Positions 8,798 through 39,964 of a stretch of 64,000 nucleotides of DNA are shown piece after piece (position 1 is the stretch's first letter; each line of letters opens with the position of its first letter). This stretch comes from an uncultured Brevibacillus sp. (GTDB taxonomy: Bacteria; Bacillota; Bacilli; Brevibacillales; Brevibacillaceae): NCBI RefSeq assembly GCF_947502445.1, contig NZ_CANMZW010000021.1, positions 14,823-78,822 of the forward strand, written 5' to 3'. Under the pieces are notes generated by a model. The model saw only the letters and a list, made by a program, of their open reading frames with translations, did not search any database and was not told where the DNA came from. The position numbers and the translations under genes are program-made.

Positions 8798-8812
8798 AAG
8801 ATAGACAAAGAA

Positions 8813-14931: not shown

Positions 14932-14963
14932 TAATGATGTTGTTGAGAAGGGAGGAGGGGAAC

Positions 14964-15449
14964 TTGCAGTTCTCTAAAAGTACAGATTATGCCCTACACG
15001 CTTTACTTCATCTGGGAAACTCGGAGCGTTGCAACAATGTAGGGATCAAGGAATTAGCTTCCACACTCGGTGTTTCTGAAAGCTATTTATCCAAAATCAT
15101 GTCCAAGTTGAGGCAGGACGGACTCGTACGTGCTGTGCCAGGGGTGAACGGCGGTTACGAGCTTTCCAGATCAACTGAACAAATTACGTTTCTTGATGTG
15201 ATTCAAGTAATTGAAGGAAGACAAAAGTTGTTCGAATGCTCCAATACGGATTCGCAGCAGCATCGGTTGTTAGCGGAAGAGGAGACTGCCGGGCGGGATC
15301 AGGAGCGTTCAGGAAAGTGCGAATGCTTGGTCCAGAAAGTGATGGAGGGTGCGGAACAGCATCTGCACCAATACTTGCGGGAACACACGATCCAGTCGGT
15401 ACTGGATGAGGCTTTCAAGCATGGGAACCATGAGACAAACAAGAAGTAA
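14964..15449 (+). CDS. Rrf2 family transcriptional regulator
   Basis: FSKSTDYALHAL, SESYLSKIMSKL, GVNGGYEL; TTG start after GGAGG. Confidence 0.9.
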   Translation: MQFSKSTDYALHALLHLGNSERCNNVGIKELASTLGVSESYLSKIMSKLRQDGLVRAVPGVNGGYELSRSTEQITFLDVIQVIEGRQKLFECSNTDSQQHRLLAEEETAGRDQERSGKCECLVQKVMEGAEQHLHQYLREHTIQSVLDEAFKHGNHETNKK

Positions 15450-15468
15450 TACACTTCTTGTGCTTTAA

Positions 15469-15491
15469 TTATGGATATAATAGATCTATAT
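15469..15491. promoter_or_regulatory. Probable Rrf2 operator 2
   Basis: TTATGGAT-N7-ATCTATAT, same layout as operator 1, upstream of the oxidoreductase. Confidence 0.55.
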
Positions 15492-15506
15492 AAGGATGTG
15501 CTATTG

Positions 15507-16424: not shown

Positions 16425-16453
16425 ATTTTATTAAGGCAGAATGGGAGGTACTA

Positions 16454-17056
16454 GTGGGAAATACGGATAAGTTTGAAATGATAGCAAATAGATACGACAC
16501 TCCGGAAAGAATCCATATTGCAAAGGTATCAGCTAATGCCATTCGTGAATATGTAGTTGACGCTACGAGCAAGAACGCGATTGATTTTGGGTGTGGAACG
16601 GGTCTTGTCGGAATGAACTTGCTAAATGATTTTCATTCTGTGCTTTTCCTGGATACTTCACAAAACATGATTAATCAAATAAAGCTAAAAATTTCCGATT
16701 TTGCTATTCAGAATGTAGATACATTATGCTTTGATTTTGAAAAGGAAGCTCTATCAGATTTACATGTAGACTATATTTTTATGGCTCAGGCTCTACTCCA
16801 CATTCATGATGTTGAATTCGTTTTATCAAGATTGCTTGATGTGCTAAATGAAGGCGGACATTTACTAATCGTAGATTTTGATAAAAATGAAAAAGTAGTT
16901 TCAGATATCGTTCATAACGGGTTTGATCAAGTAGAGCTAACGGACATAATGACGAAAATAGGGTACAGGAATATTCAATCCAAAACTTTTTATAACGGAA
17001 GTAAAATATTCATGGGATATGATGCATCTATGTTTATACTTGATTCTCAAAAATAA
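16454..17056 (+). CDS. Class I SAM-dependent methyltransferase
   Basis: AIDFGCGTG; GTG start after GGGAGG; AT-rich relative to upstream gene. Confidence 0.85.
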   Translation: MGNTDKFEMIANRYDTPERIHIAKVSANAIREYVVDATSKNAIDFGCGTGLVGMNLLNDFHSVLFLDTSQNMINQIKLKISDFAIQNVDTLCFDFEKEALSDLHVDYIFMAQALLHIHDVEFVLSRLLDVLNEGGHLLIVDFDKNEKVVSDIVHNGFDQVELTDIMTKIGYRNIQSKTFYNGSKIFMGYDASMFILDSQK

Positions 17057-17255
17057 ACGCAGCAATTGTCGAGGTTGTTAAACCTGAGCGAATCGTCATG
17101 GTAGGGTTCTCATCTTCCTCCGACCTATCAGTATAGAAATTGAAGCGTCTACAGGAAACGTGGTAGAATTTCTCATGGGATCGTATACCATTTTTAGGTT
17201 TAATCAACAGGTGTGCTTAGCTACATAACGATTGTATTGGAGTTGAGATAAGACT

Positions 17256-18488
17256 ATGAAAAACGAGATCATGGATAGATTCATCTCTTACGCACAAGTG
17301 AATACACAGTCCGATGAGGACAGCGAAACCTGCCCTTCAACATCAGGGCAGCTAGTGCTTGCCCAAATGCTCGTAGACGAGCTGAATGCCATCGGTATGC
17401 AGGAAGTTACGATGGATTCGAACGGTTATGTAATGGCAACCCTTCCGGCCAATACAGACAAAGAGATTCCAACGATCGGTTTTCTTGCCCATATGGATAC
17501 GGCCACTGATTTTACTGGCGCTAGCGTGAACCCGCAAATTGTAGAAAATTATAACGGACAAGACATTGTCTTGAACAAAGCACGGAATATTGTACTTTCT
17601 CCTATCGATTTTCCAGAGCTGACAGGATACAAAGGTCACACACTCATAACGACAGACGGAACCACATTACTTGGCGCTGATGATAAAGCCGGTATTGCCG
17701 AAATCATGACCGCTATGGCTTATCTCATTCGACACCCAGAACTGAAACACGGGAGGGTACGAGTAGCTTTCACCCCGGATGAAGAAATCGGCAGAGGCCC
17801 CGAGAAGTTTGATGTGTCCGCTTTCGACGCAGTGTACGCCTATACGATGGATGGCGGTCCTCTCGGTGGGATCGAGTACGAGAGCTTTAACGCTGCATCA
17901 GCTATCATTACTTGCAAAGGGACGAATGTCCACCCTGGTACAGCCAAAGGTAAAATGGTCAACGCTGCTAAAATAGCCATGGAGCTGCACGGCATGCTGC
18001 CGGCTGATGAGACTCCTGAGAAGACGGAAGGCTATGAAGGCTTCTACCATCTATCGTCTATTCGTGGTGACGTAGAGCAAACACAGCTTCGTTATTTGAT
18101 TCGGGAGCACGATCGGAATCGGTTTATGGAGAGAAAGTCCGAGCTGGCTCGTATTGTAGAAGAATTACAGAAAAAATACGGTGATAAGCGAATTGAGTTC
18201 GAAATCAAAGACGAATATTTCAACATGAGGGAAAAGATAGAGCCTGTCATGGAAGTAGTGGACATCGCTAAACGAGCGCTAGAAAATCTCGGAATCGTGC
18301 CGATTATTGAGCCGATTCGCGGTGGTACGGATGGCTCTCAGCTATCCTACATGGGGTTGCCAACACCGAATATATTCACAGGCGGGGAAAATTACCACGG
18401 GCCGTTCGAATATGTTTCGGTTGATAACATGGTGCAGGCTGTGAACACCATCATCGAAATTGTTAAGCTGTATGAACAAAGATCCTAA
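17256..18488 (+). CDS. pepT: Peptidase T (tripeptide aminopeptidase, M20B)
   Basis: [38 protein letters not shown] motifs. Confidence 0.95.
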
Positions 18489-27228: not shown

Positions 27229-27527
27229 GCGAAAGTAAAATTACCCAAATTCAGGCTTACAAGGTGGTAGCGTCAGTTTAAGACTGTATTTTTCGGTCTG
27301 TGGCTGATGCTGCCTGGCTGCGAAGAAAATAGTATATATTCTACAACAACGATTAAACGTTTACTAGCCGGCCTGACGGGTCGGTCTTTTTCATGCACCC
27401 AGTATAATAGAGCGGGTAAAAACAAAATCACCCACAAACCCTGCTGGATATAATGTGTAAGAATCGTCAGAAATTGTGTAAAATGACGTGAACGCTTGCT
27501 ATAAGTGGCGTTTCACGTTTTTTTAGG

Positions 27528-27544
27528 TTGGCATAGCATTTGCA
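27528..27544 (+). promoter_or_regulatory. Sigma54 (SigL) -24/-12 promoter
   Basis: TTGGCATAGCATTTGCA = GG-N10-GC, 32 nt upstream of the PTS IIA gene; sigma54 activator nearby. Confidence 0.8.
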
Positions 27545-27576
27545 AAAGGTAAGGATAGAGGAGGTGCAATAAAATA

Positions 27577-28059
27577 GTGAGTTTGTCAGAATATATTGGT
27601 AAGGACCATATCCGCATATTTGAAGAAGCAGTGGACCAAGCGGAAGTGTTGCATCAATTGGGAGACATGTTGGTTCAGACGGGTGCAATTAGTATCGAGT
27701 ATATGGAGTCAGTGCGTAAACGCGAACAAGCATTTCCGACCGGATTGTACACGGGAGAAGTGAATGTCGCGATCCCGCATGCGGATCCTGAGAACTACGT
27801 CAAGCAACCCGCTATTGCACTCGGTGTGGTACGAAAAGGAGTAGCGTTTCGTAACATGGCTGACCCAACAGACGATATTTCGGTTCAACTGGTGTTTTTA
27901 CTTGCACCGGAACGAGGAGAAACACAGCTGGTCATTTTGGAACAGATCATGAATCTGATACAAGATCAGGCAAATATGCGACAAATTATGGATGCACAGG
28001 GAACAGAAGACGTCTGGAACGTACTGGGCCAACTGGTGCAAGTGGAGGAGAAATTATGA
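27577..28059 (+). CDS. PTS EIIA (galactitol/fructose class)
   Basis: REQAFPTGL..VAIPHAD. Confidence 0.9.
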   Translation: MSLSEYIGKDHIRIFEEAVDQAEVLHQLGDMLVQTGAISIEYMESVRKREQAFPTGLYTGEVNVAIPHADPENYVKQPAIALGVVRKGVAFRNMADPTDDISVQLVFLLAPERGETQLVILEQIMNLIQDQANMRQIMDAQGTEDVWNVLGQLVQVEEKL

Positions 28060-28340
28060 ACAAGAAAAAAGTACTTGTGATTTGTGGGACAGGAGTAGCA
28101 ACATCGACGATAGTGATGCAAAAATTGAAAGCGTTTTTACGGGACAAAAGCATCGAAGCAACGTTGGAACAATCCAAGGTGAGTGACGTTTTGAACAAAG
28201 CGGGTCAATATGATCTGATTATTTCTACAACAGCAGTACCCCCTTCCATGGTCGATAAAGTTATCAATGCTGTGCCTTTGTTAACGGGGATCGGGAAAGA
28301 GCAAGTATATGATGAAATAGAAGCAAGACTAAAAATGTAA
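28056..28340 (+). CDS. PTS EIIB (galactitol class)
   Basis: VLVICGTGVATST. Confidence 0.9.
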   Translation: MNKKKVLVICGTGVATSTIVMQKLKAFLRDKSIEATLEQSKVSDVLNKAGQYDLIISTTAVPPSMVDKVINAVPLLTGIGKEQVYDEIEARLKM

Positions 28341-28373
28341 TGTGACTATCTGCCTTATCTAAGGAGGTTCACT

Positions 28374-29723
28374 ATGGACGTTATCAAATACCTCGTTGAC
28401 CTTGGCCCTTCGGTTGTTTTGCCGGTTCTCATCTTCTTGTTTGGGATTATCCTGAAAACGAAGCCGGGTGAAGCCTTCCGTGCTGGCCTTACAGTAGGGA
28501 TTGGTTTCATTGGGATCAACCTTGTGATCGGCTTGCTAATGGGTAGCCTGGGACCTGCCGCACAGGACATGGTGAAAAATTTGGGAATCCAGCTTACGAT
28601 TATTGATGTGGGCTGGCCAGCTACATCGGCGATTGCATTCGGCTCGGCAGTAGGCGCACTTGCGATTCCGATCGGACTTGCTGTCAATCTCGGGATGCTT
28701 GTATTAGGCTTGACCCGAACGCTCAATATCGATTTGTGGAATCTGTGGCATATCGCTTTTACGGGTTCTTTGGTTGCTGTCATGTCCAACAACATTACGC
28801 TTGGCATCCTGACTTCAATCGCTCACGCAATCATCCTGCTCGTCCTGGCGGATCTGACGTCCAAGCATGTCTCCAGCTACTATGGATATGCGAACATTTC
28901 GTTTACACACGGAACTGCGACGCCATACTACTTGATCGCATTGCCATTGGAAAAATTGTTTGACCGTATTCCGGGCTTCCGCAACCTGAAAGCTGACCCT
29001 GAGTCCATTCAAAAACGCCTTGGGCTTTTAGGGGAATCGACAGTTCTTGGACTCATTTTAGGCTTTATTATCGCCCTTTTGGCAGGCTGGGACTTGCCTA
29101 AGGTTCTTGACTTAGGTGTAAAAACAGCAGCGGTTATGCTCATTCTCCCGCGGATGGTAAGTATTTTGATGGAGGGTCTGATGCCGATTTCGGAGGCTGC
29201 TGGCGATTTTGTTCGTAAGCGCTTTCCTGGTCGAGAAGTCCACATCGGAATGGATGCAGCGTTGGCGGTTGGGCATCCGGCTACCATTGCCGCTTCGCTA
29301 GTAATGATTCCGATTGTACTTGGGCTGGCCGTTTTGATGCCGGGCAACAAAGTGCTTCCTTTCGGTGATCTGGCGACCATTCCATTCATCGTCTGCCTCA
29401 TGGTGCCGATTTTCAAAGGGAATGTGATCCGGACAGTAATCGGTGCGACCATCTCACTTGCATTCGGCTTGCTGTTAGCGACTTACATTTCACCGTTGTT
29501 CACAAAAGCAGCACAGAACGCAGGCTTTAAATTCCCGGATGGCGCCAGTGCGATTTCATCACTCGTGGACGGTGCTGTTCCGACTACGGCGATCTTCCTT
29601 TTTGGCGCAAAGCTAGGCTATGTGGGCATTATTGGAATAGCCATTATCGGTTTGGTCGTTGCTTACCTGGTACAGCGCAAGCATCGTTTGGCCGCCGCCA
29701 ATACGGTTAATAAAGCATTATAA
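28374..29723 (+). CDS. PTS EIIC (GatC-like, galactitol class)
   Basis: IDVGWP, NIDLWNLWH, LPFGDL; multi-TM. Confidence 0.9.
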   Translation: MDVIKYLVDLGPSVVLPVLIFLFGIILKTKPGEAFRAGLTVGIGFIGINLVIGLLMGSLGPAAQDMVKNLGIQLTIIDVGWPATSAIAFGSAVGALAIPIGLAVNLGMLVLGLTRTLNIDLWNLWHIAFTGSLVAVMSNNITLGILTSIAHAIILLVLADLTSKHVSSYYGYANISFTHGTATPYYLIALPLEKLFDRIPGFRNLKADPESIQKRLGLLGESTVLGLILGFIIALLAGWDLPKVLDLGVKTAAVMLILPRMVSILMEGLMPISEAAGDFVRKRFPGREVHIGMDAALAVGHPATIAASLVMIPIVLGLAVLMPGNKVLPFGDLATIPFIVCLMVPIFKGNVIRTVIGATISLAFGLLLATYISPLFTKAAQNAGFKFPDGASAISSLVDGAVPTTAIFLFGAKLGYVGIIGIAIIGLVVAYLVQRKHRLAAANTVNKAL

Positions 29724-29861
29724 CGCGGACTTCATCAATAACACCCTGTACGTCGCCCGAGCGGCATGTGTAGGGTGTTTCACTTGGTTATGGGAAGTTG
29801 ACAAAAAACAGCAGCAGCGATGGACTTTCTTACAAGCCCACGGCTACTGCTGTCTATCCCG

Positions 29862-31499
29862 TTATTTACTATGAACAACCATCGCTTTAATCTCTTGCTT
29901 CATTTTGGGTATAGACGAAGGAGTCATGCTTAATTCGTCAACACCGAGTGCAACCAGCTCTTTTGCATAGGTAGGATCACCTGCCATTTCACCGCAGACC
30001 CCGACCCATTTGCCGTGTGCGTGCGCATCCTGTACCACTGTGCCAATCAAGCGAAGGATCGCGGGATGTCCAGGATTGTACAGATAGCCTACCTTTTGAT
30101 TCATGCGGTCAGCCGCAAAGGTATACTGGATCAAGTCATTGGAGCCGATGCTGAAAAAGTCTACATGTGGCGCCAGTTGATCGACAATCAGCGCAGCAGA
30201 GGGGACTTCAATCATAATCCCTGTCTCGATTTGTTCAGCGAAAGAAGATTGTCTGGCTGCTAGCTGCTCTTTGGCCAGCTCCCATAACGCTTTTGCCTCC
30301 AAAAGCTCCTCGACAGTCGCGATCATCGGGAACATGACTTTTACATTCCCGAAAAGGGAGGCGCGAAGGATTGCTCGCAGCTGCGTCAAAAACATCTCTT
30401 TTTCAGCAAGACACAAGCGGATGGCTCGAAACCCGAGAAACGGATTCTCTTCAGGCTCCATCTGCAGGTACGGTAATTGTTTGTCTCCTCCAATGTCCAT
30501 GGTGCGAATAATGACTGGGCGTCCCGCCATTTCACGGGCAACTGCGGCGTATGCTTCAAATTGCTCGTCCTCACTCGGCATTTGTTCCCGCTCGAGAAAT
30601 AAAAACTCAGATCGAAATAGGCCAATCCCGTCTCCGCCGTTTGCAAGTACGGCCTTGCAATCCTCTGGAGTTCCGATATTGCCCGCCACTTCAATCAACT
30701 TGCCGTCTGACGTGTGAGCAGGTGCGTGTGCAGCATCTCGCAGGACTGCTAGTTCTTCTACATATTCCCGTTGCAGGCGCTGGTACCTATTGATTTGCTC
30801 GGCAGCTGGATTGAGCTGCAGCTCTCCCGTATTTCCATTCAGGGCAAGCGTCGTCTCATTTGTGATGTTATCTAAAATGCTGCCACATCCCACAACAGCG
30901 GGGATTTGCAGCGTGCGTGCCAAAATGGCAGAGTGACTGGTGGTGCCGCCAATCTCTGTAACAATCCCTTTGACCCATTCCGGTTTCAATCGCGCTGTTT
31001 GAGAAGGGGTCAAGTCATGTGTAACCAGGATGACGGGGCGCTCGATCTGATCTAGCGAAGAATCTGCGATGCCTAGCATTTTTCGCGCAATTTTATCTCG
31101 CAGGTCTTTGAAGTCAGCTGCCCGTTCCCGCAAATACTCGTCATCCAGTTGTTCAAAAAATGCGATATGTCCTGAAAAGACGTGATAAGCTGCCCAGGCT
31201 GCATTCTTGTTTTCGCCTTTGATTTCCTTGTCCATCTCTTGAACGAGGGTTGGATCATCCAAAATCATGAGATGGGAGTCGAAGATCGCGCACTCATGCT
31301 CACCTATACGCTGCCTTACAGTCTCCCGCGTGACAGCGATTTCAATTTTCACTTGCTCAAGAACCTCACAAAGCTTTTGTTGTTCTTGATCTGCCTGGTC
31401 GGCAGCAATCGTCTCGCTGGGAATAACCAGTTCTGCCTCTTTCAGTACAAAAACACGTTCTGCTGCATAACCGGGTGAGGCTGCAATTCCTTTTATCAT
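29862..31499 (-). CDS. ptsI: Phosphoenolpyruvate-protein phosphotransferase (PTS enzyme I)
   Basis: MIKGIAASPG start after GGAGGG; GGTTSHSAIL (active His), GIGLFRSEF, ENPFLGFRAIR, FFSIGSNDL, GVCGEMAG. Confidence 0.93.
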   Translation of the reverse strand: MIKGIAASPGYAAERVFVLKEAELVIPSETIAADQADQEQQKLCEVLEQVKIEIAVTRETVRQRIGEHECAIFDSHLMILDDPTLVQEMDKEIKGENKNAAWAAYHVFSGHIAFFEQLDDEYLRERAADFKDLRDKIARKMLGIADSSLDQIERPVILVTHDLTPSQTARLKPEWVKGIVTEIGGTTSHSAILARTLQIPAVVGCGSILDNITNETTLALNGNTGELQLNPAAEQINRYQRLQREYVEELAVLRDAAHAPAHTSDGKLIEVAGNIGTPEDCKAVLANGGDGIGLFRSEFLFLEREQMPSEDEQFEAYAAVAREMAGRPVIIRTMDIGGDKQLPYLQMEPEENPFLGFRAIRLCLAEKEMFLTQLRAILRASLFGNVKVMFPMIATVEELLEAKALWELAKEQLAARQSSFAEQIETGIMIEVPSAALIVDQLAPHVDFFSIGSNDLIQYTFAADRMNQKVGYLYNPGHPAILRLIGTVVQDAHAHGKWVGVCGEMAGDPTYAKELVALGVDELSMTPSSIPKMKQEIKAMVVHSK

Positions 31500-31786
31500 C
31501 GTATCCCTCCAGTGCAGTATGGCAAAAAGCATGCAAAAAGGCCAGGGAAATACCTCCCTGACCCGTGATCCAAAGGATTTGAATACATGTATCATATATT
31601 TTCTGACAATGGTCGTCAATGGAAAGGAATAAATTGTGGGAAAAATCTCACAAAAACTACCACAGAATATTCTGGTTTGCCTTTGTATTTGTGGTACGGT
31701 AGAAAATGTAGAGCGGATTAAAAGGCATTTTACGGCTTGAACGGACTGGTATGATACTTGCTTGTAATAGATTGTGGGGGGATGTT

Positions 31787-34666
31787 ATGGAGGAACGCAT
31801 CAAGCAGATTATTGATCAAGAGGATAAAAAAGTTCCGTATACCGATGAGCAGATTGCGCGTCAGATGGGAATTCGTCGAGATGAGGTAACGCTGCTTCGG
31901 CATAAACTCCAGGTTCCCGACTCACGCAAAAGAAGGCAGCCTCTCTTGCTCAAGGATATGGAGAAGCTTTTACATTCTTCACCGAACATGACGAGCCGGG
32001 AGCTAACGAGCCGTTTGAACGAACAAGGCTATGATGTATCTCGTTTCATGGTTCATCAATTACGAAGCAAAATGGAAGCGTTCTCAGGTGAAACGCCAAA
32101 CATAGATGACCATGCTCGCCAAAAAACGAGGAAGGTCAGCCAGGCGGTTACCTTCGCCAGTCTGATAGGAGCAAAGAGTACACTGAAAGCGGCTATTCAA
32201 CAAGCGCAAGCAGCAGTCCTCTATCCACCACACGGACTTCATACTCTCTTTTTTGGAGCTACAGGTGTGGGCAAGAGCAGAATGGCGGAAGCGATGTACC
32301 AGTTTGCAATCGAGCAGCAGGTGATGAAGAAAAACGCACCGTTTGTTATTTTTAACTGCGCCGATTACGCCAAAAATCCGCAGCTGTTGCTTTCCCAGCT
32401 ATTCGGGTATGTAAAGGGAGCGTTTACTGGTGCCCAGCAAGATAAGCCCGGGTTAGTGGACCAGGCAGACGGTGGAATTCTGTTTTTGGATGAAATTCAT
32501 CGATTGCCACCGGAAGGGCAGGAAAATCTCTTTTATCTGATCGACAAAGGCGTATATCGACGTTTGGGAGAGGTCCAGTTCCAGCAAAAGGCGACCATAC
32601 TGATCGTCGGTGCGACGACAGAGGCCCCCGAATCAAGCCTGTTGTTGACGTTGCGTAGACGGATTCCCATGACGATAGAGCTACCCTCTCTCTCCGAATG
32701 GACACAACAGGAGCGTCTATCTCTGATTTTCCATTATTTGAATGAAGAGACAGACCGTATTGGCAGAGAGGTTGTCGTCCAAAAGGATGTGGTTGCCTCC
32801 CTTTTGACCTATGATTGTCCTGCAAATATGGGGCAGCTGCACAGTGATATTCGTGTCCTGTTGGCGAAAGCCTTTTTGAAAACGATTCATCAGGTAGAAA
32901 AGACGGCTGTTCAGGTCGATCGATATGATTTGCCTATGCACGTCGCCAGTCACCAGCAATCAGCCGAGCTGGCACCAGAGCTGCCAATGCTAAAGAAAGA
33001 CCAGTTCCTATTTGTTCCCGGCCAACGCTCCGATCTGGTGGGAACAGAGATAGTCGAGGATGCTCCCCAGCATCTCTATGATTGGGTGGTAGAGCGCTAT
33101 CAAAATCTCAAAAATCAAGGTCAAAGCGAAGAATTGATCGAGCTCATCGTAAACAAGGAACTGGATACACGGATGGAGCCGTTCACAGGCGAAGAAGAAA
33201 AACGCTCGCTGCGCTTGCAGCAGCTGGTCAAACTGGTCGGGGATCAGGTTGTTCAGGCTGTGGAACAAATGCTCTGGATCGCGGAGCGCCACATTACTCT
33301 GGATTACCAACGGATCTCCTATGCTCTCGCCATTCATTTGCATGGACTGTTGGAGAGATGGCCGGATACGAAAGAAATGGATAGCTGGATCGAAACCGAT
33401 CAGGAGTCGATGGAGTTCAAAGTGGCGCTGGAAATGGCAAAGGTGATCCAAACCAGCTATGGAATATTACTGCCTGTAAAAGAAGTGTCTGTTCTCGCCA
33501 TGTACGTCAAGCAGTGCTCGATCTATACAGAGCCGAAGCCAATGATTGGTGTAGTCGTCACTTCGTATGGACTCGTAGCCAAAAGCATGGCCGACGTCGC
33601 TTCCCGCCTGTTTGAACGAAAGCATGCGCAGGCAGTTGAGCTGTATTGGAACGATGATCTGGTTGTGTCAATCGAGCGAATCAGCACAATGATCCAGCAA
33701 GCGGATCAAGGAGAAGGGGTCATTTTGCTGGCAGATATGGGGAGCAATCTGCTGAGTGAAGAGGAATGGAATAGGCGAAGCGGTGTACGTGTAAAGGTCC
33801 TGCCCAATGTGACCACTACTCTCGTCATCGAGGTCATCAGAAAATGTCTCTACTCCAGTGAATCGCTTGAGCAGATCGTGGACCAGATGCAGCATTTGCC
33901 TGTCAAATCTCTTCATTCGATCCAGTCACTTACTCCCAAGCCAGTAGCCATTGTCACCATTTGTATCACGGGTAAAGGTGCCGCCAAACGATTGGATCAG
34001 CTTTTACAAGAAAAGCTGGAGACTGCTGCAACGCAGGTCACCATTTTACAGGCAAGCTCGCTTTCGATTCGAAAGCAGTATAAGGAATGGTTGGAGAAAT
34101 ATCACATCTTTGCTGTTGTCGGTACGGTGAATCCCATGCTGGATGGCATTCCGTTTATTTCGATAAAAGAGATTGTGGACGAGTCCGGCATCAGCTTTAT
34201 CAAACGATTGTTGCTCGTGGCCAATCGGACACTCCAGCCAGCATGGGTTCCTCGCTTACATGGATTGCGCGATCTACTCTACCCGGAGTTGGTCTGTGAC
34301 GATTTGGAGCTGTCTACGAAGCAGCAGGTGATCACTGTCCTTGCGCAACGACTGAGAGAGCACGGTTTCGTTGAGGCAGGCTTCGAGGGCAAAGTGTGGG
34401 AACGCGAAAAAATAGGGAACACATGCCTGTTTGGAACAGCGATCCCGCATGCCGATACGACACAAACGATCAGACCGGGTATCGCGATTGCCAATCTCGC
34501 ACAGCCAATTGAATGGGAAACAGGATACTTTGTAAGTCAAGTGTTCATGCTTGCCATCACGGAGACATGCCAACTGGCGGTAGAGGAGCTGTACCAATTT
34601 TTACACGAGCACGAAGAAGAGAATGTGCCACCTGATTTACAGACATTCATGAAGCTTGAACAGTAA
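31787..34666 (+). CDS. Sigma54-interacting PRD/PTS-regulated activator (LevR-like)
   Basis: GATGVGKS Walker A, GAFTGA, LFLDEIH; followed by PRD, EIIA-like, EIIB-like (ICITGKGAA) and EIIA (AIPHAD) segments. Confidence 0.9.
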   Translation: MEERIKQIIDQEDKKVPYTDEQIARQMGIRRDEVTLLRHKLQVPDSRKRRQPLLLKDMEKLLHSSPNMTSRELTSRLNEQGYDVSRFMVHQLRSKMEAFSGETPNIDDHARQKTRKVSQAVTFASLIGAKSTLKAAIQQAQAAVLYPPHGLHTLFFGATGVGKSRMAEAMYQFAIEQQVMKKNAPFVIFNCADYAKNPQLLLSQLFGYVKGAFTGAQQDKPGLVDQADGGILFLDEIHRLPPEGQENLFYLIDKGVYRRLGEVQFQQKATILIVGATTEAPESSLLLTLRRRIPMTIELPSLSEWTQQERLSLIFHYLNEETDRIGREVVVQKDVVASLLTYDCPANMGQLHSDIRVLLAKAFLKTIHQVEKTAVQVDRYDLPMHVASHQQSAELAPELPMLKKDQFLFVPGQRSDLVGTEIVEDAPQHLYDWVVERYQNLKNQGQSEELIELIVNKELDTRMEPFTGEEEKRSLRLQQLVKLVGDQVVQAVEQMLWIAERHITLDYQRISYALAIHLHGLLERWPDTKEMDSWIETDQESMEFKVALEMAKVIQTSYGILLPVKEVSVLAMYVKQCSIYTEPKPMIGVVVTSYGLVAKSMADVASRLFERKHAQAVELYWNDDLVVSIERISTMIQQADQGEGVILLADMGSNLLSEEEWNRRSGVRVKVLPNVTTTLVIEVIRKCLYSSESLEQIVDQMQHLPVKSLHSIQSLTPKPVAIVTICITGKGAAKRLDQLLQEKLETAATQVTILQASSLSIRKQYKEWLEKYHIFAVVGTVNPMLDGIPFISIKEIVDESGISFIKRLLLVANRTLQPAWVPRLHGLRDLLYPELVCDDLELSTKQQVITVLAQRLREHGFVEAGFEGKVWEREKIGNTCLFGTAIPHADTTQTIRPGIAIANLAQPIEWETGYFVSQVFMLAITETCQLAVEELYQFLHEHEEENVPPDLQTFMKLEQ

Positions 34667-34681
34667 TCGAGGAGGATTTCC

Positions 34682-34945
34682 ATGGAAAAACAAGTGACGA
34701 TTCTAAATAAAACAGGACTTCACGCTCGTCCCGCATCTGAGTTTGTCAAACTGGCTGCCCGTTTCGAGTCAGAGATCACGATTTTGGTGGGGACAAAAGT
34801 CGCGAATGCGAAGAGTATCATCAACGTTTTATCGCTGGCGGCAACGATGGGTACCGTTTTTACTCTGAGAGCGGTAGGGCCAGATGAAGCTGAAGCAATC
34901 GATGCTCTCTCCTCTTTAATTGAGAGAAAGTTTGGGGAAGAATAA
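34682..34945 (+). CDS. HPr family phosphocarrier
   Basis: GLHARPA (His15), AKSIINV (Ser46). Confidence 0.93.
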   Translation: MEKQVTILNKTGLHARPASEFVKLAARFESEITILVGTKVANAKSIINVLSLAATMGTVFTLRAVGPDEAEAIDALSSLIERKFGEE

Positions 34946-34956
34946 ACATTTGACCC

Positions 34957-35019
34957 TTGACTACGTAATCAGAATATTTATAATGAATTACAAATGTAAC
35001 CACAAGGAACAAATGTAAA
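34957..35019 (+). promoter_or_regulatory. SigA promoter with tandem operator A
   Basis: TTGACT-N16-TATAAT then TTACAAATGTAAC-N7-AACAAATGTAAA. Confidence 0.7.
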
Positions 35020-35039
35020 AATATCCGGAGGTGACGTGC

Positions 35040-35204
35040 ATGAAGCCGATTGAAAAGATAACTCCCGGAGCAAAAGTATACAAACTGTTTGAACACGAAA
35101 AGCTGGTTTGCGAAGGAAAAGACGAGGTTTTCATTATCTCGATCACCAAGATGTCGCGCGAGGAATACGAGCGGGACCTGAAGCAGGCAGCTGTTAATCA
35201 ATAA
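35040..35204 (+). CDS. Small hypothetical protein, 54 aa (not in ORF track)
   Basis: RBS GGAGGTG; MKPIEKITPGAKVYKLFEHEKLVCEGKDEVFIISITKMSREEYERDLKQAAVNQ*. Confidence 0.65.
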   Translation: MKPIEKITPGAKVYKLFEHEKLVCEGKDEVFIISITKMSREEYERDLKQAAVNQ

Positions 35205-35324
35205 ACTTGATACGCACTACGACGCTTGGACCACGGGTCAGGTGGGGGATTCAAACCTCCATCTGGTCCGTTTTTTTCTTCATACAAGCCTGTTGATACT
35301 GGCATATCCGAGGAGGAGAGGACT

Positions 35325-36311
35325 TTGATTACTAACATAAACGTTCCACCCATGATTACAGAGAAAAAGCTGGTGGAGCTGTATCATCAAATGTGGCTGA
35401 TTCGCTTTTTCGACGAGAAGGTAGATGAGTTTTTTGCCAAAGGACTGATCCATGGAACGACCCACTTGTGTGTGGGCCAGGAGGCTTCGGCAGCAGGTGC
35501 CATTGCGGTTCTGGAAGATCGGGACAAGATCACCAGCACGCACCGTGGACATGGTCATTGCATCGCCAAAGGTGCAGAGGCGAACCGGATGATGGCAGAG
35601 CTGTTCGGTCGTGTAACCGGATATTGCCGTGGTAAAGGCGGATCGATGCACATTGCGGATGTAGATAAAGGCAACCTGGGGGCGAATGGCATTGTCGGCG
35701 GTGGGATTCCAATCGCTGTCGGATCAGCTCTCACTTCGCAGATGAAAAAGCTAGGCTATGTGACCATGTGCTTTTTCGGAGATGGCGCCACCAATGAAGG
35801 CAGCTTTCATGAAGCGGTCAATATGGCGGCGATCTGGAACCTTCCTGTCGTCTTTGTTTGTGAAAATAATCAATACGGGATGTCCGGCCCGGTCAAGGAC
35901 ATGGTGAAAGTCGCGAACATCGCGGATCGTGCAGCAGCGTATGGCATTCCTGGCAAAGTGGTAGACGGCAATGACATTTTTGCCATGATGAACGTGACTC
36001 ATGAAGCAGTGGAACGAGCACGGCGAGGAGAAGGTCCAACGCTCATCGAAGCCAAGACCTATCGCTGGAAAGGCCACTCCAAGAGCGATGCGAAAAAATA
36101 TCGTACACGTGATGAGGAAATGGATTGGCGCAATAATCGTGATCCGATTGAGCGGATGAAGCGCGTTCTGATCAGTGAAGGAATCGTAAGCGAGCAGGAA
36201 GCAGCGCAGCTGGAAGCAGATGCAAGACAAGAAATTGAAAATGCGGTCAAGTTTGCTGAGGAAAGCCCGATGCCGCCGCTCGAAATTTTAGAAGAAGACG
36301 TCTACGCATAG
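35325..36311 (+). CDS. ThDP-dependent dehydrogenase E1 alpha (AcoA/PdhA-like)
   Basis: HLCVGQEA, STHRGHGH, GDGATNEG..N ThDP motif, YRWKGHS; TTG start after GAGGAGG. Confidence 0.92.
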   Translation: MITNINVPPMITEKKLVELYHQMWLIRFFDEKVDEFFAKGLIHGTTHLCVGQEASAAGAIAVLEDRDKITSTHRGHGHCIAKGAEANRMMAELFGRVTGYCRGKGGSMHIADVDKGNLGANGIVGGGIPIAVGSALTSQMKKLGYVTMCFFGDGATNEGSFHEAVNMAAIWNLPVVFVCENNQYGMSGPVKDMVKVANIADRAAAYGIPGKVVDGNDIFAMMNVTHEAVERARRGEGPTLIEAKTYRWKGHSKSDAKKYRTRDEEMDWRNNRDPIERMKRVLISEGIVSEQEAAQLEADARQEIENAVKFAEESPMPPLEILEEDVYA

Positions 36312-36329
36312 GCGAGGGAGGGATATCAA

Positions 36330-37322
36330 TTGTCAACGATGAGAGAGCTTACTTACCTGGAAGCGGTACGCGAATGTATGAGTCAGGAAATGCGCGTCAA
36401 TGAAGACGTATTTATCATGGGTGAAGATATTGGTTTGTATGGAGGGGCGTTTGGGGTCACTCGCGGGATGCTCGAAGAATTTGGCAAAGAACGCGTGCGA
36501 AATACGCCGATCTCGGAAGCAGCAATTGCTGGTGCTGCGGTTGGAGCAGCCATGACGGGTATGCGGCCCATCGTGGAGCTGCAGTTCTCCGATTTCATCA
36601 CGATTGCGACCGATCAGATCGTAAACCAGGCTGCGAAGAACCGCTATATGTTTGGCGGCAAAGGAAAAGTGCCACTCGTACTGCGGACACCATCCGGTTC
36701 AGGTACAGGAGCAGCTGCCCAGCACTCGCAGAGCCTGGAAGCCTGGATGGCACACATTCCGGGGCTAAAAGTTATCCAGCCGTCTACCGCCTATGATGCA
36801 AAAGGGTTGCTGAAAGCTGCAATCGATGACGACAATCCTGTAATCTTTTACGAGCACAAGCTCCTTTACCGGACAAAAGGTCATGTGCCTGAGGAGTCGT
36901 ACAGCTTGCCAATCGGGAAAGCAGATATCAAGCGTTCCGGTACGGATGTGACAATCGTGGCTACTGCAATTATGGTTCATAAGGCATTGCAAGCTGCAGT
37001 CGAGCTGGAAAAGGACGGGATCAGCGTCGAAATCATCGATCCTCGTACGCTCGTTCCTCTGGACATTGAGACAATTGTGGAATCGGTGAAAAAGACCGGG
37101 CGACTTGTTGTCGTTCATGAGGCGGTAAAGCGTGGCGGGTTTGGCGGGGAGATCGCAAGCTTGATCGCAGAGAGCGAAGCCTTTGATTATTTGGATGCAC
37201 CTATCAAGCGTTTAGGTGGCAAATCGGTGCCAATTCCGTACAATCCTGTCCTCGAAAAAGCAGCCATACCACAAGAACTTGATATCATCCAAGCGGTAAA
37301 AGAGACAGTTTTCCGCCGCTGA
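36330..37322 (+). CDS. Dehydrogenase E1 beta (AcoB/PdhB-like)
   Basis: [30 protein letters not shown]. Confidence 0.92.
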
Positions 37323-37342
37323 CATAGGAGGGGTCGAACATC

Positions 37343-38563
37343 ATGGCAACTGCCGTATTTATGCCAAAACTGAGTATGACAATGGAAACCGGAACAGTCA
37401 TCCAATGGTTCAAGCAAGAAGGGGACCAGGTTCGTGAAGGTGACGTCCTGCTGGAAGTTTTGACGGATAAAATCAACATCGAAGTAGAATCGTACACGAC
37501 CGGAACACTCCTGAAAATTTACTATGGCGCGGACCAAGTCGTTCCTGTAAATCAGGTGATCGGATACGTAGGAGAAGCAAACGAAAATGTACCAGATACA
37601 CCTCCGCTGGTAGAAACTAGTGCCAGTCAGGAAGAAGCAGAAGCCCCAGACGATCAACCGTCCAAGGAAGAAACACAAGGCAGTGAATCACTTGACCAGA
37701 AAATCAGAGCAACTCCTGTCGCTCGCCGAATGGCACGGGAGAACGGAATCGATCTGGGACAAGTGAATGGTTCCGGTCCCAATGGCCGCGTCCAAAAAGC
37801 AGATATCGAACATACTCTTTCTGCGAACGCTGGCAAATCAGCTTCCACAAGTACGGGACCAGTGACAAGCCTGCCAGGTCAACAAGTGAAAGTGGAAGGC
37901 ATGCGCAAGGTTATTGCAGAGCGTATGGTAGCGAGTGCGTACACCGCTCCTCACGTGACTCTCTCAACGGAAGCAGATATGAGCCAGGTAATCGAGGTAC
38001 GTTCTGCTTTGCTGCCTACGATCGAGAAATTGACCGGACATCGCTTGTCCTACACGGAAATTATTATAAAAGCTGTCGCCATGGCATTAGCTCGTCATCC
38101 GAAAGTAAATGCGTCACTCAAAGATGATGTGATCCAGCTTCACGAGACCATCAATATCGGTGTGGCTGTCGCGGTGACAGACGGATTGCTCGTACCCGTA
38201 ATCAAACAGGCGGATCAAAAAGGGCTCACACATTTGACTACCGAGACAAAAAGGCTGGCTGGATTGGCTCGTGATGGCCGTCTGCTTCCGGATGATATGC
38301 GCGGTGGCACGTTTACGATCAGCAACCTTGGGATGTATGCGATTGATGTGTTTACACCTATCATCAATCAGCCAGAGAGTGCCATTCTTGGAGTGGGACG
38401 AATCCATGAGAAGCCAGTAGGTGTAAATGGACAGATCGTACTACGACCAATGATGTCTCTTTCCTTGTCATTTGACCACCGTGTTATGGACGGGGCACCT
38501 GCGGCTGCATTCTTGCAAGAGATCAAAGAATTGCTGGAATCACCCTATCATCTGCTGGCGTAA
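37343..38563 (+). CDS. Dihydrolipoamide acyltransferase E2
   Basis: Lipoyl [11 protein letters not shown]3-binding ATPVARR, DHRVMDG. Confidence 0.92.
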
Positions 38564-38581
38564 AAGGAGGAGCAAACAACC

Positions 38582-39964
38582 ATGCAAACATACGATATCG
38601 CTGTTATAGGTGGAGGGCCAGCAGGGTATGTGGCTGCCATCCGAGCTTCCAAGGAAGGGAAGCGGGTCGCCCTGATTGAAGCAGACTTCGTGGGAGGGAC
38701 TTGCCTGAACCGGGGCTGCATTCCGTCGAAGACGCTGCTGCATAGTGCAGGTGTCATCGATCAAATTCGCAAGGCTTCCAGCTGGGGGATCGAGACAGGT
38801 GAGGTCACTGTTTCCCTGGAGAAAATGATGACTCGTAAAAATCAGGTCATCACACGACTAAGAACAGGAATCACGTCCTTGTTGAAGGCAGGAAAAATTG
38901 ATTTGCTCCAAGGCTTTGGCGAGGTGAATGCAGATAAAAGCATTCGCGTTCGGATCGGAGAAGAAGTCCAAACGATCCAGGCCAGCTCTATCATTCTCGC
39001 TACTGGCTCTACACCAGCGGTTCCGCCCATTCCGGGATTGGCAGATGTGCCTTTCTATACAAGCGATACGATTTTTGATATTGAACAGGTGCCAGAGTCC
39101 ATTGCCATTCTCGGCGGAGGATTCATAGGGGTGGAATTTGCCTGCATTTTTGCCAGCTTGGGTGCGAAAGTGACGATCGTCGAAATGGCAGATCGTCTTA
39201 TCCCTCTGGAGGATGCAGATGCATCAGGTGTATTGTCCAAATCTCTGCGCAGCAAAGGCGTTACCTTGGGGACTGGATTGAAGGTCACCTCGGTAACCAA
39301 AACGAGTGGGGGCATTCAAGTAAATGCCGAGAATACAAAGGGTGACACACAAGCGATTTCGTGTGAGGCTTTGCTCGTAGCAGTGGGGCGCAAACCGAAT
39401 TTATCTGCCTTTAGCCAGCTGAAGCTGGAGCTTAGTGGTCCATTTGTCAAAGTAAATGAATTTCTGGAAACAAGCGTCCCGGGAATTTTCGCTGCAGGTG
39501 ATGTGATCGGTGGATGGCAGCTCGCGCATGCTGCGAGTGCAGAAGGACAGACGGCAGCTATCAATGCAGCCGGTGGTAGGGAAAAAGTGAATGACAGAGC
39601 GGTCCCTCGCTGCATTTATACCCATCCTGAGATTTCGAGCGTAGGCTTGAGTGAGGAAGAAGCAAAAGCGCGTGGCTATGCTGTGAAAACGAGTGTCTAT
39701 CAGCACAGCGGAAACGGCAAGGCGGTGGCTTCTGATGAAAATGGCGGCTTTACCAAGCTCATTGCGGAAGAGACTTACGGTGAAGTACTGGGAATCGTGA
39801 TGGTTGGCCCTCATGTCACGGAAATGATTGCAGCTGGCACGGCGTTCTTGAGCTTGGAAGCAACTGTTGACGATGTAGCAGGAATGATTTACCCACATCC
39901 AACCGTTTCCGAGAGTCTGATGGAGGTTGCGGCAAAATGGTTGGGAAAAGGAATCCACTCCTAA
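38582..39964 (+). CDS. lpdA: Dihydrolipoyl dehydrogenase E3
   Basis: GGTCLNRGCIPSK, YPHPTVSE. Confidence 0.93.
   Translation: MQTYDIAVIGGGPAGYVAAIRASKEGKRVALIEADFVGGTCLNRGCIPSKTLLHSAGVIDQIRKASSWGIETGEVTVSLEKMMTRKNQVITRLRTGITSLLKAGKIDLLQGFGEVNADKSIRVRIGEEVQTIQASSIILATGSTPAVPPIPGLADVPFYTSDTIFDIEQVPESIAILGGGFIGVEFACIFASLGAKVTIVEMADRLIPLEDADASGVLSKSLRSKGVTLGTGLKVTSVTKTSGGIQVNAENTKGDTQAISCEALLVAVGRKPNLSAFSQLKLELSGPFVKVNEFLETSVPGIFAAGDVIGGWQLAHAASAEGQTAAINAAGGREKVNDRAVPRCIYTHPEISSVGLSEEEAKARGYAVKTSVYQHSGNGKAVASDENGGFTKLIAEETYGEVLGIVMVGPHVTEMIAAGTAFLSLEATVDDVAGMIYPHPTVSESLMEVAAKWLGKGIHS

What the first reader, a model, noticed from the sequence alone, without database searches (positions are those of the whole stretch)
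27528..34945. Self-contained PTS island: galactitol-class EIIABC with its own enzyme I, HPr and sigma54 activator but no catabolic enzyme
Seen: a -24/-12 promoter, IIA-IIB-IIC, a convergent full enzyme I, a LevR-like activator and HPr. No dehydrogenase, kinase or aldolase lies inside. Known: Bacillales normally use one general ptsHI pair, and LevR-type activators typically control mannose-class PTS. Inference: a private phosphorelay insulated from general catabolite control, importing an unusual polyol that is probably processed by the adjacent 35-45 kb enzymes, or acting mainly as a sensor.
Basis: partly seen in the sequence, partly recalled or inferred. Interest (0 to 1): 0.62.

Follow-up and report, generated by a model that had tools for sequence, protein, structure and literature searches.

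The report
Sugar-uptake operon with private phosphorelay
A soil Brevibacillus carries a sigma-54-controlled sugar or polyol uptake system with its own extra copies of the two general PTS proteins (enzyme I and HPr); it is not a free-standing island but the front half of a larger conserved catabolic locus whose substrate is unknown.

Summary
The region holds a -24/-12 promoter, a Gat-family IIA-IIB-IIC, a convergent complete enzyme I (EI), a LevR-like sigma-54 activator (ACT) and HPr. The genome has two other EI-HPr pairs, so these copies are extra.

The "self-contained island without enzymes" reading does not hold.
- Thirteen of 61 Brevibacillales genomes carry an ACT orthologue. Where the contig continues, ACT-HPr is followed by a 54-aa ORF and a PDH/acetoin-type E1E2E3 operon. 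All 13 also carry the downstream gut-PTS/DRL oxidoreductase.
- A second conserved -24/-12 promoter sits in front of ACT. No terminator separates HPr from the next genes.
- Deeper-branching relatives have an L-ribulose-5-P 4-epimerase-family gene between IIC and EI. The window's clade has lost it.
- EI is under purifying selection here (dN/dS about 0.07). It is absent in two relatives and cut to its N-terminal half in a third. HPr is always kept, and is fused to ACT in Ammoniphilus.
- A cre-like box inside IIB is invariant across orthologues, and HPr keeps Ser46. Both argue against insulation from catabolite control.
- ACT belongs to a known LevR subtype ending in an EIIA-Mtl-like domain. Its Brevibacillales orthologues have lost the histidine (now Tyr) through which HPr activates LevR.

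Verdict: a new variant of a known kind, with moderate interest.

The parts
27430..27481 (+). Candidate enhancer (UAS) boxes for the activator upstream of P1: ACCCACAAAC (27430-27439), AATGTGTAAG (27452-27461), AAATTGTGTAA (27471-27481)
   Evidence: These blocks are conserved in alignments of the P1 upstream regions from six loci. Related AATTGTGG / CACAA boxes lie upstream of P2. Binding is inferred, not tested.
27529..27544 (+). P1, sigma-54 (-24/-12) promoter of the IIA-IIB-IIC operon: TGGCATAGCATTTGCA
   Evidence: It is conserved at the same position in L101-L106. sigL is present in the genome.
27577..28059 (+). EIIA (EIIA_2, Mtl/Fru/Gat type), 160 aa, with the AIPHAD histidine motif
   Evidence: PF00359 at 108 bits. 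The best NCBIfam hit is galactitol IIA, far below its cut-off. dN/dS is 0.11.
28056..28340 (+). EIIB (Gat/Lac-type), 94 aa, with an N-terminal VICGTG cysteine; its start overlaps the IIA stop
   Evidence: PF02302. Orthologues are aligned.
28126..28139 (+). cre-like box TGAAAGCGTTTTTA inside the IIB gene (candidate CcpA roadblock)
   Evidence: One mismatch to TGWAANCGNTNWCA. It is present in all nine loci scanned. It is the only invariant run of 8 nt or more in the IIB alignment of eight orthologues, where 48% of columns are invariant overall.
28374..29723 (+). EIIC of the Gat family (TC 4.A.5-like), 449 aa; the only EIIC-GAT gene in the genome
   Evidence: PF03611 at 288 bits; TIGR00827 at 469 bits against a 542 cut-off. 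tblastn finds a single genomic hit. dN/dS is 0.035.
29740..29853 (.). Two convergent terminator hairpins: 29740-29779 after IIC, and 29808-29853 read on the minus strand with a T-run after EI
   Evidence: Fold of 29715-29870 gives -53 kcal/mol, z-score -3.6.
29862..31499 (-). Enzyme I paralogue, 545 aa, all three domains, with catalytic His (GGTTSHSAI) and Cys (CGEMAGD) motifs
   Evidence: TIGR01417 at 651 bits. Aligned to S. carnosus EI 2hro. It is 49% identical to the C7 EI and 43-45% to the C18 EI. The locus EIs form a monophyletic clade on a long stem. dN/dS is 0.07.
31539..31619 (-). EI control region: sigma-A-like promoter TTGACG-17-TATGAT (31619 to 31591) and a terminator-like hairpin plus T-run (31564 to 31539) in the 5' leader, ahead of the RBS and ATG
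   Evidence: Both elements are conserved in L103-L106. No Rfam family matches. The mechanism is unknown.
31631..31675 (+). Candidate UAS for P2: AAATTGTGGGAAAAATCTCACAAAA (inverted TTGTG/CACAA) and CCACAGAATATTCTGG
   Evidence: Conserved in the P2 upstream alignment. Inferred only.
31747..31762 (+). P2, second sigma-54 (-24/-12) promoter, 25 nt upstream of the activator ATG: TGGTATGATACTTGCT
   Evidence: The same position in relatives carries closer-to-consensus versions: TGGCACAAATGTTGCT, TGGCACGTATCTTGCA and TGGCATAGATATTGCA.
31787..34666 (+). LevR-like sigma-54 activator (ACT), 959 aa: HTH, AAA+ (GAFTGA), PRD (H517), EIIA-Man-like domain with Tyr594 in place of the phospho-His, EIIB-Gat-like (C726), EIIA-Mtl-like (H888)
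   Evidence: A cre-like box at 32073-32086 is conserved in most orthologues.
34682..34945 (+). HPr paralogue, 87 aa, with His15 (TGLHARPA) and Ser46 (AKSI), 16 nt after ACT
   Evidence: PF00381 at 101 bits. The best solved relative is HPr entry 3le1, with the same KFGEE tail. It follows ACT in all 13 genomes and is fused to ACT in Ammoniphilus.
34957..35271 (+). Junction to the downstream operon: sigma-A-like promoter (34957-34984), conserved 54-aa ORF (35040-35204), strong terminator/attenuator hairpin (35233-35271)
   Evidence: No terminator lies between HPr and the small ORF. A silage metatranscriptome contig spans 34768-35228, and depth falls after the hairpin.
35325..39964 (+). PDH/acetoin-dehydrogenase-type E1 alpha, E1 beta, E2 and E3; the conserved partner of ACT-HPr and the likely catabolic enzyme of the system
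   Evidence: Found directly downstream of ACT-HPr in the window, L101-L107, L110-L113 and L116. The E1 alpha start is approximate.

Best explanation
The region is the regulatory and uptake half of a larger catabolic locus conserved in Brevibacillales. It is not an autonomous island.

Layout:
- Two sigma-54 promoters, each preceded by AATTGTG-type boxes, drive (i) a Gat-family EIIA-IIB-IIC permease operon and (ii) the activator gene with a dedicated HPr gene.
- Transcription from the second promoter can run on into a 54-aa ORF. Past an attenuator hairpin it can reach a PDH/acetoin-type E1E2E3 complex.
- The activator is a LevR-like enhancer-binding protein of the known subtype that ends in EIIB-Gat-like and EIIA-Mtl-like domains.

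Proposed control (inferred by analogy with LevR, CelR and MtlR):
- Without substrate, the phosphorylated Gat-type EIIA/EIIB phosphorylate the activator's C-terminal PTS-like domains (Cys726, His888) and keep it off.
- With substrate, these phosphates drain to the sugar.
- The activator, stimulated by P~His-HPr (most likely at PRD His517), then switches on both promoters. This includes its own gene, giving positive feedback.
- The dedicated HPr, and where present the dedicated EI, supply this phosphorylation locally. HPr is the indispensable partner of the activator. EI is an ancestral accessory that is not essential.
- The system remains under general carbon catabolite control through cre boxes and HPr Ser46.

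Substrate (speculative): unknown. It is probably a pentulose, pentitol or deoxy-ketose type compound whose phosphate ester is processed by the E1E2E3 complex, after an AraD-like epimerase step in deeper-branching relatives.
For: Shown:
- Gene content, domains and catalytic residues.
- Two conserved -24/-12 promoters and sigL in the genome.
- No terminator after HPr, then a strong hairpin after the small ORF.
- Metatranscriptome contigs continuous across ACT, HPr and the small ORF, with depth dropping after the hairpin.
- ACT-HPr adjacency in all 13 of 61 Brevibacillales genomes that have the activator, with E1E2E3 following directly wherever the contig continues.
- An ACT-HPr fusion in Ammoniphilus.
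- A Gat-class PTS linked to this E1E2E3 even in lineages where IIC is only 43-47% identical: Ammoniphilus and G079.
- An L-ribulose-5-P 4-epimerase-family gene between IIC and EI in B. humidisoli, G075 and WF146.
- Purifying selection on every gene of the block.
- The locus EIs are monophyletic and distinct from the vertically inherited EI.
- An invariant cre-like box in IIB, and hprK present.
- Clostridial homologues of the activator sit beside a Gat-class IIA(-IIB)-IIC with varied catabolic genes and no EI or HPr.

From the literature (PMC10864463): the LevR/CelR phosphorylation logic, and the existence of LevR-like regulators that end in an EIIA-Mtl-like domain.
Against: - No phosphotransfer, binding or induction has been tested.
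- The His that HPr phosphorylates in LevR (His585 equivalent) is a Tyr in all Brevibacillales orthologues in the alignment. The activation site proposed here (PRD His517) is therefore a guess.
- EI is missing or truncated in 3 of the 10 loci with an orthologous Gat-type PTS block, so a strictly private EI-to-HPr chain cannot be essential.
- P2 in the window's own clade deviates from consensus (TGGTAT..TTGCT).
- A sigma-A promoter with a SorC-type operator also precedes the small ORF and E1E2E3. That complex may be driven mainly from there.
- gut-PTS/DRL modules occur without E1E2E3 or ACT in another genus.
- The metatranscriptome evidence rests on assembled contigs from a related strain and could include DNA.
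Confidence: 0.6

Rival explanations
1. Orthogonal private phosphorelay. The locus EI phosphorylates only the locus HPr, and that HPr serves only the Gat-type EIIA and the activator. The system would then be blind to the phosphorylation state of the general PTS and escape catabolite repression.
For: - A third EI and a dedicated HPr exist beside two other pairs.
- The locus EIs form a separate long-stem clade under purifying selection.
- EI has its own promoter and leader.
- The activator has lost the usual HPr-target His, which could mark a rewired interface.
Against: - EI is lost in G026 and G077 and reduced to its N-terminal 275 aa in WF146, while the rest of the locus stays intact.
- HPr keeps Ser46 and hprK is present.
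- There is an invariant cre-like box in IIB and a conserved one in ACT.
- No specificity determinant has been tested.
Confidence: 0.2
2. Sensor-only PTS. The Gat-type EII does little net transport. Together with HPr and EI it reports an external compound to the activator, whose real targets are the E1E2E3 genes and neighbouring genes.
For: - There is no catabolic enzyme inside the block in this clade and no AraD-like gene anywhere in the genome.
- HPr is coupled or fused to the activator.
- From my own recollection, not checked here: PTS transporters used mainly as sensors are described for Listeria ManR/EIIMpo.
Against: - IIC is full length and the most strongly constrained PTS or regulatory gene of the block (dN/dS 0.035, 94-99% identity where EI is 75-97%).
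- Relatives carry a sugar-phosphate epimerase in the permease operon.
- Homologous activator plus Gat-PTS units in Clostridia sit in ordinary catabolic operons.
Confidence: 0.12
3. Decaying remnant. The window's clade has lost the epimerase and the pathway is no longer functional. EI and HPr are leftovers of a horizontally acquired package.
For: - The AraD-like gene has been lost.
- The IIC|EI junction is an indel hotspot carrying unrelated or broken genes in G004, G009 and G026.
- The upstream flank varies between species.
Against: - All six genes are intact and under strong purifying selection between species with dS of 0.5-0.8.
- Promoters, the cre box and the leader hairpin are conserved.
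- A related strain shows transcripts in a metatranscriptome.
Confidence: 0.08

Closest known systems
Bacillus subtilis lev operon with LevR; B. thuringiensis and C. acetobutylicum CelR (sigma-54-dependent, PRD-containing activators of PTS operons)
   Same: - A -24/-12 promoter with an upstream enhancer.
- An activator built of HTH, a sigma-54 AAA+ domain (GAFTGA), PRD, and EIIA-Man-like and EIIB-Gat-like domains.
- Control expected from the cognate EII and from HPr.
- CcpA/cre superimposed, as shown for Bt cel (PMC10864463).
   Different: - The controlled PTS is Gat-family, not Man- or Lac-family.
- The C-terminus is an EIIA-Mtl-like domain instead of PRD2.
- The HPr-target His of the EIIA-Man-like domain is Tyr.
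- The activator gene has its own sigma-54 promoter and carries a dedicated HPr gene behind it.
- A dedicated EI lies beside it.
[quoted passage not shown] 2014, as cited in PMC10864463)
   Same: - Same domain order, with 37-40% identity over the full length.
- They sit next to a Gat-class IIA(-IIB)-IIC.
   Different: - The clostridial members keep the THG histidine.
- They have no adjacent HPr or EI.
- They are linked to sugar-acid or Zn-dehydrogenase genes rather than to an E1E2E3 complex.
MtlR/LicR/ManR-type PRD activators
   Same: A C-terminal EIIB-Gat-like plus EIIA-Mtl-like pair with a conserved Cys and His. In MtlR these receive phosphate from the cognate EIIA/EIIB (my own knowledge).
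   Different: Those regulators lack the sigma-54 AAA+ domain and act at sigma-A promoters.
Paralogous phosphorelays of Proteobacteria: EI-Ntr/NPr/EIIA-Ntr, FryA and DhaM of E. coli, and multiphosphoryl transfer proteins clustered with transporters (PMC2405797)
   Same: Extra EI and HPr copies are tied to one transporter or one regulatory task. The N-terminal-only EI of WF146 recalls the EI-N-like domain of DhaM.
   Different: - Here the proteins are separate and full length, without a GAF domain.
- They occur in a Firmicute. There ptsH-ptsI are described as one vertically inherited unit (PMC2405797).
- They are coupled to a sigma-54 activator.
B. subtilis acoABCL with AcoR (sigma-L-dependent acetoin dehydrogenase operon)
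   Same: An E1 alpha, E1 beta, E2, E3 operon placed under a sigma-54 enhancer-binding protein encoded next to it.
   Different: - The activator here is PTS-controlled (LevR-like), not AcoR-like.
- The operon is flanked by two PTS permeases.
- It also has a sigma-A promoter and an attenuator.

Membership tests
PTS galactitol (Gat) family EIIABC, TC 4.A.5 | EIIC of Pfam EIIC-GAT, separate EIIB with an N-terminal Cys, and EIIA of the EIIA_2 type with His | tested here: met
   PF03611 at 288 bits, PF02302 and PF00359. The VICGTG and AIPHAD motifs are read from the sequence.
PTS galactitol (Gat) family EIIABC, TC 4.A.5 | Galactitol specificity: passes the equivalog/subfamily cut-offs and is linked to gatD and gatYZ | tested here: not met
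   TIGR00827 scores 469 against a 542 cut-off, and the GatA and GatB models score far below theirs. No GatZ/KbaZ is found in the genome. No gatD or gatYZ lies near any of the 13 loci.
LevR-type sigma-54 PRD activator | Sigma-54 interaction AAA+ domain with GAFTGA, plus a cognate -24/-12 promoter | tested here: met
   PF00158 at 131 bits. KGAFTGA is invariant. P1 and P2 are conserved.
LevR-type sigma-54 PRD activator | EIIA-Man-like domain carrying the histidine phosphorylated by HPr (LevR His585) | tested here: not met
   Tyr594 aligns with the His of MHG/THG in 3gx1, 3gdw and 3ipr. The residue is SYG in all Brevibacillales orthologues in the alignment and THG in the clostridial homologues.
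LevR-type sigma-54 PRD activator | Two PRDs, the second C-terminal (inhibitory His) | tested here: not met
   Pfam finds only one PRD. The C-terminus is EIIA_2 at 71 bits. This matches the known EIIA-Mtl-ended subtype.
General enzyme I (PtsI) | Three domains with the catalytic His and the PEP-site Cys | tested here: met
   TIGR01417 at 651 bits. GGTTSHSAI and CGEMAGD align to 2hro.
General enzyme I (PtsI) | The single, vertically inherited, genome-wide EI of a Firmicute | tested here: not met
   It is the third EI in the genome. Orthologues occur in only 5 of 36 other same-genus species genomes and in two deeper relatives, B. humidisoli and G075. It forms a separate clade from the C7 EI, which groups with the EIs of Bacilli.
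HPr | His15 and, in Firmicutes, Ser46 | tested here: met
   TGLHARPA and AKSI align to 3le1.
Regulatory PTS-Ntr-like relay | [quoted passage not shown] | tested here: not met
   The EI has no GAF domain, and a full EIIC is present.
Mobile genomic island | Composition shift, integrase or tRNA border, and transfer as one unit | tested here: not met
   GC is flat at 0.48-0.49 across 26-36 kb. No integrase is found in the block. Its parts (EI, epimerase, IIABC, gut-DRL) are gained and lost separately.

The most novel reading that the evidence does not exclude
In Brevibacillales, a LevR-like activator that has lost the usual HPr-target histidine has recruited its own HPr and, ancestrally, its own EI. 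HPr is translationally coupled to the activator and fused to it in Ammoniphilus. Together they would form a dedicated signalling phosphorelay, a Gram-positive counterpart of PTS-Ntr. This relay would gate sigma-54 transcription of a Gat-type permease and of an acetoin-dehydrogenase-like complex that cleaves a ketose or deoxy-ketose phosphate. That would be a sugar-phosphate catabolic route with no kinase, dehydrogenase or aldolase step of the usual kind.
Probability: 0.2. Interest if true: 0.7.

Novelty: new variant of a known kind. Interest (0 to 1): 0.5.

Why it matters
In Firmicutes, EI and HPr are treated as single general proteins whose phosphorylation state integrates all PTS sugars and drives catabolite repression. 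A genus that routinely carries several EI-HPr pairs, each attached to one sugar system, would challenge that picture if the pairs are selective. One of these pairs is wired to a sigma-54 activator that has lost the canonical HPr site. The locus also ties a PTS permease to a 2-oxoacid/acetoin-dehydrogenase-type complex, an unusual end point for a PTS substrate, so finding the substrate could reveal a new catabolic route. B. choshinensis is an established laboratory and expression host, so the tests are feasible.

Tried and rejected
- Close EI relatives outside the genus. The best hits were about 49% identical ordinary EIs of many Firmicutes, so no donor lineage could be named.
- EI tree. It did not place the locus EI clade next to any sampled group.
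- Rfam search of 27.0-35.4 kb for a riboswitch or RAT-like element in the EI leader. Nothing was found, and the leader does not resemble the RAT consensus as I remember it.
- A -24/-12 element in front of the small ORF or E1 alpha. None was found with 2 mismatches or fewer.
- Galactitol assignment. Rejected, because model scores are below cut-off and the genome has no gatZ.
- Mobile-island reading. Rejected, because composition is flat and the parts turn over piecemeal.
- The inserts between IIC and EI in G004, G009 and G026 as the missing catabolic genes. They hold a glycosylase, a broken MFS gene, an amine oxidase, an isochorismatase, a deacetylase and a MerR regulator, none of them sugar enzymes.
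- Literature searches for extra EI or HPr in Firmicutes or Brevibacillus. They returned only the general evolutionary survey PMC2405797. One query was mostly noise.
- Run X6. Its depth is flat across all genes, so it is probably DNA and was not used as expression evidence.

Full report
**1. What is there**

- The IIA-IIB-IIC genes (27577-29723, plus strand) belong to the Gat family. IIC matches PF03611 and scores 469 bits on TIGR00827, below the 542 cut-off. IIA and IIB score far below the galactitol equivalog cut-offs.
- Enzyme I lies on the minus strand with all three domains (TIGR01417, 651 bits). Its true start is the ATG at 31499 (MIKGIAASPG, preceded by GGAGGG), not the TTG at 31619.
- The catalytic His (GGTTSHSAI) and Cys (CGEMAGD) of EI align with S. 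carnosus EI.
- The activator (ACT) starts at 31787. It has an HTH, a sigma-54 AAA+ domain with GAFTGA, one PRD, an EIIA-Man-like domain, an EIIB-Gat-like segment and a C-terminal EIIA-Mtl-like domain.
- HPr follows ACT after 16 nt and keeps His15 and Ser46.
- The promoter TGGCATAGCATTTGCA at 27529-27544 is real and is conserved in all orthologous loci.
- sigL and hprK are present in the genome.

**2. Are these the only pts genes?**

No. The genome is a Brevibacillus: ACT is 90% identical to a B. choshinensis protein. It has three EI and five HPr-family genes. I read the contexts of the other copies from sequence.

- Contig C18 carries glcT-crr-ptsH-ptsI-ptsG.
- Contig C7 carries mtlA-mtlR-mtlF-mtlD-ptsI-ptsH.
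- A second LevR-like activator on C7 heads a Lac/Chb-class PTS operon that ends with yet another HPr.
- Contig C52 carries a Crh-like gene beside the yvcJKL genes.

In a maximum-likelihood tree the mtl-linked EI groups with the general EIs of Bacilli. The locus EIs form their own clade (100/100 support) on a long stem. The C18 EI is a very long branch. Most genomes of the genus have two or more EI genes.

**3. Distribution and synteny**

- Orthologues of the locus EI (75-97% identity) occur in only 5 of the 36 other same-genus species genomes.
- ACT orthologues (56-98%) occur in 13 of 61 Brevibacillales genomes.
- I fetched these loci and compared them with the window's proteins. The invariant core is ACT-HPr. 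It is followed by a 54-aa ORF and E1 alpha-E1 beta-E2-E3 wherever the contig continues.
- An orthologous IIA-IIB-IIC (IIC at least 74% identical) sits upstream in most loci.
- EI is full length in the window's clade and in the deep-branching B. humidisoli and G075 (60-62% identity). It is absent without remnant in G026 and G077. In Brevibacillus sp. WF146 it is reduced to the N-terminal 275 residues.
- B. humidisoli, G075 and WF146 have a 217-aa gene between IIC and EI. It passes the NCBIfam L-ribulose-5-phosphate 4-epimerase subfamily cut-off (311 against 251 bits). The window's genome has no homologue of it anywhere.
- In G004, G009 and G026 the same junction holds unrelated or broken genes.
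- In Ammoniphilus, ACT is fused in frame to an orthologous HPr and is followed directly by E1E2E3. A more distant Gat-type PTS lies 2 kb further on.
- The DRL oxidoreductase of the downstream gut cluster occurs in 18 of 61 genomes, including all 13 with ACT.
- In another genus, GutM-gut PTS-DRL exists without E1E2E3 or ACT. G079 has E1E2E3-gut PTS-Gat PTS without ACT.

The parts therefore combine as modules. The Gat-type PTS, ACT-HPr and the E1E2E3 complex are repeatedly linked.

**4. Regulation**

- A second -24/-12 element lies 25 nt upstream of the ACT start (31747-31762). It is closer to consensus in relatives, so ACT-HPr is probably autoregulated.
- Both promoters are preceded by conserved AATTGTG(G/T) / CACAA boxes.
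- No terminator follows HPr. A strong hairpin with a T-run lies after the 54-aa ORF.
- In a silage metatranscriptome, contigs 97-99% identical to the window run continuously across ACT, HPr and the small ORF. Depth falls after that hairpin. This is suggestive only.
- EI has its own conserved sigma-A-like promoter and a conserved terminator-like hairpin in its leader. No Rfam family matches it.
- A cre-like box inside IIB (28126-28139) is the only invariant run of 8 nt or more among eight orthologues whose IIB proteins are as little as 66% identical to the window's. This points to selection on the DNA itself and to CcpA control.

**5. The activator**

- Its architecture is widespread in Thermoanaerobacter, Thermoanaerobacterium and related Clostridia.
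- In both clostridial loci examined it sits beside a Gat-class IIA(-IIB)-IIC. One carries sugar-acid genes and the other Zn-dehydrogenase genes. Neither has EI or HPr nearby.
- The literature already notes LevR-like regulators of Clostridiales in which PRD2 is replaced by an EIIA-Mtl-like domain. It places HPr-dependent activation of LevR at His585 of the EIIA-Man-like domain (PMC10864463).
- In all Brevibacillus, Ammoniphilus and Aneurinibacillus orthologues in the alignment that histidine is a tyrosine. The clostridial homologues keep it, and alignment to solved domains confirms the position.
- His517 (PRD), Cys726 and His888 are invariant.
- The lineage that lost the canonical HPr site is the one that gained a dedicated HPr. 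I cannot explain this coincidence.

**6. Selection**

Between the window and G004 (dS 0.5-0.8), dN/dS is 0.07 for EI and ACT, 0.04 for HPr and 0.035 for IIC. All genes are functional in this clade.

**7. Interpretation**

The best reading is a sigma-54, LevR-like-controlled catabolic locus. Its enzymes are the adjacent E1E2E3 complex and, ancestrally, an AraD-family enzyme.

- The dedicated HPr is the activator's obligate partner. The EI is an old but dispensable accessory.
- A fully orthogonal phosphorelay is possible but is weakened by the EI losses, the retained Ser46 and the cre boxes.
- The phosphorylation logic is inferred from LevR, CelR and MtlR.
- The substrate is unknown. A pentulose, pentitol or deoxy-ketose is a guess, based on the epimerase and on the acetoin-dehydrogenase-like chemistry.
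My data add that E1E2E3 is at least as tightly tied to ACT-HPr and the Gat-type PTS as to gut/DRL.

**8. Novelty**

Each component is known, and the activator subtype has been described. Three features are new compared with what I could find:

- An operon-embedded EI and HPr in a Firmicute. In that phylum ptsHI are described as one vertically inherited unit (PMC2405797).
- The coupling of that HPr to a LevR-like activator lacking the canonical HPr site.
- The link of a PTS to an E1E2E3 complex.

I rate it a new variant of a known kind, with interest 0.5.

Noticed in passing
own genome, contigs C7:105206-112433 and C18:98024-103120 (outside the window): Brevibacillus seems to carry several sugar-linked EI-HPr pairs as a rule: mtlA-mtlR-mtlF-mtlD-ptsI-ptsH (reversed order) and glcT-crr-ptsH-ptsI-ptsG. 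The mtl-linked EI groups with the general EIs of Bacilli, while the glc-linked EI is a very long branch. Most genomes of the genus have two to four EI hits.
   Followed up: partly
own genome, C7:73003-81138: A second LevR-like activator (899 aa) heads a Lac/Chb-class PTS operon: IIB, IIC, a ChbG-like gene, IIA, a GH4 glycosidase and a HAD gene. The operon ends with its own HPr gene. This is another operon-embedded HPr in the same genome (gene roles read from sequence only).
   Followed up: no
window 31539-31619, minus strand: The EI paralogue has a conserved sigma-A-like promoter followed by a conserved terminator-like hairpin and T-run in its 5' leader. This suggests attenuation or antitermination control of unknown type. 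No Rfam family matches.
   Followed up: partly
window 28126-28139: A cre-like box inside the IIB coding region is invariant across eight orthologues, including at synonymous positions. It is the only invariant run of 8 nt or more in the gene.
   Followed up: yes
L107 (Ammoniphilus sp. 3BR4) 2918-17978: There are two tandem E1E2E3 sets with the same identity to the window's proteins. The first follows a ribose-type ABC transporter and is followed by a GolD/DthD-like SDR. The second follows the ACT-HPr fusion.
   Followed up: no
L104 4130-7998, L105 6951-8004, L111 2288-8486: The IIC|EI junction is an indel hotspot. It holds a glycosylase plus a split MFS gene in G004, about 1 kb in G009, and a 6-kb block (amine oxidase, isochorismatase, deacetylase, MerR) replacing EI in G026.
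   Followed up: partly
L119 (G079) 1279-15837: DRL lies divergent from a single run of E1E2E3-GutM-gut PTS-Gat-type IIA-IIC-IIB, with a SorC regulator further on and no LevR-like activator or HPr. Both permeases are in one operon with the dehydrogenase complex.
   Followed up: no
window 31788-35590, run X19: A silage metatranscriptome holds contigs 97-99% identical to the IIA-IIB genes and to ACT, HPr and the small ORF. A close relative of this strain therefore appears to express the locus in silage.
   Followed up: partly
own genome, many contigs: About 45 tblastn hits to the sigma-54 AAA+ domain of the activator are spread over the genome. This is an unusually large set of enhancer-binding proteins for a member of the Bacilli.
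   Followed up: no
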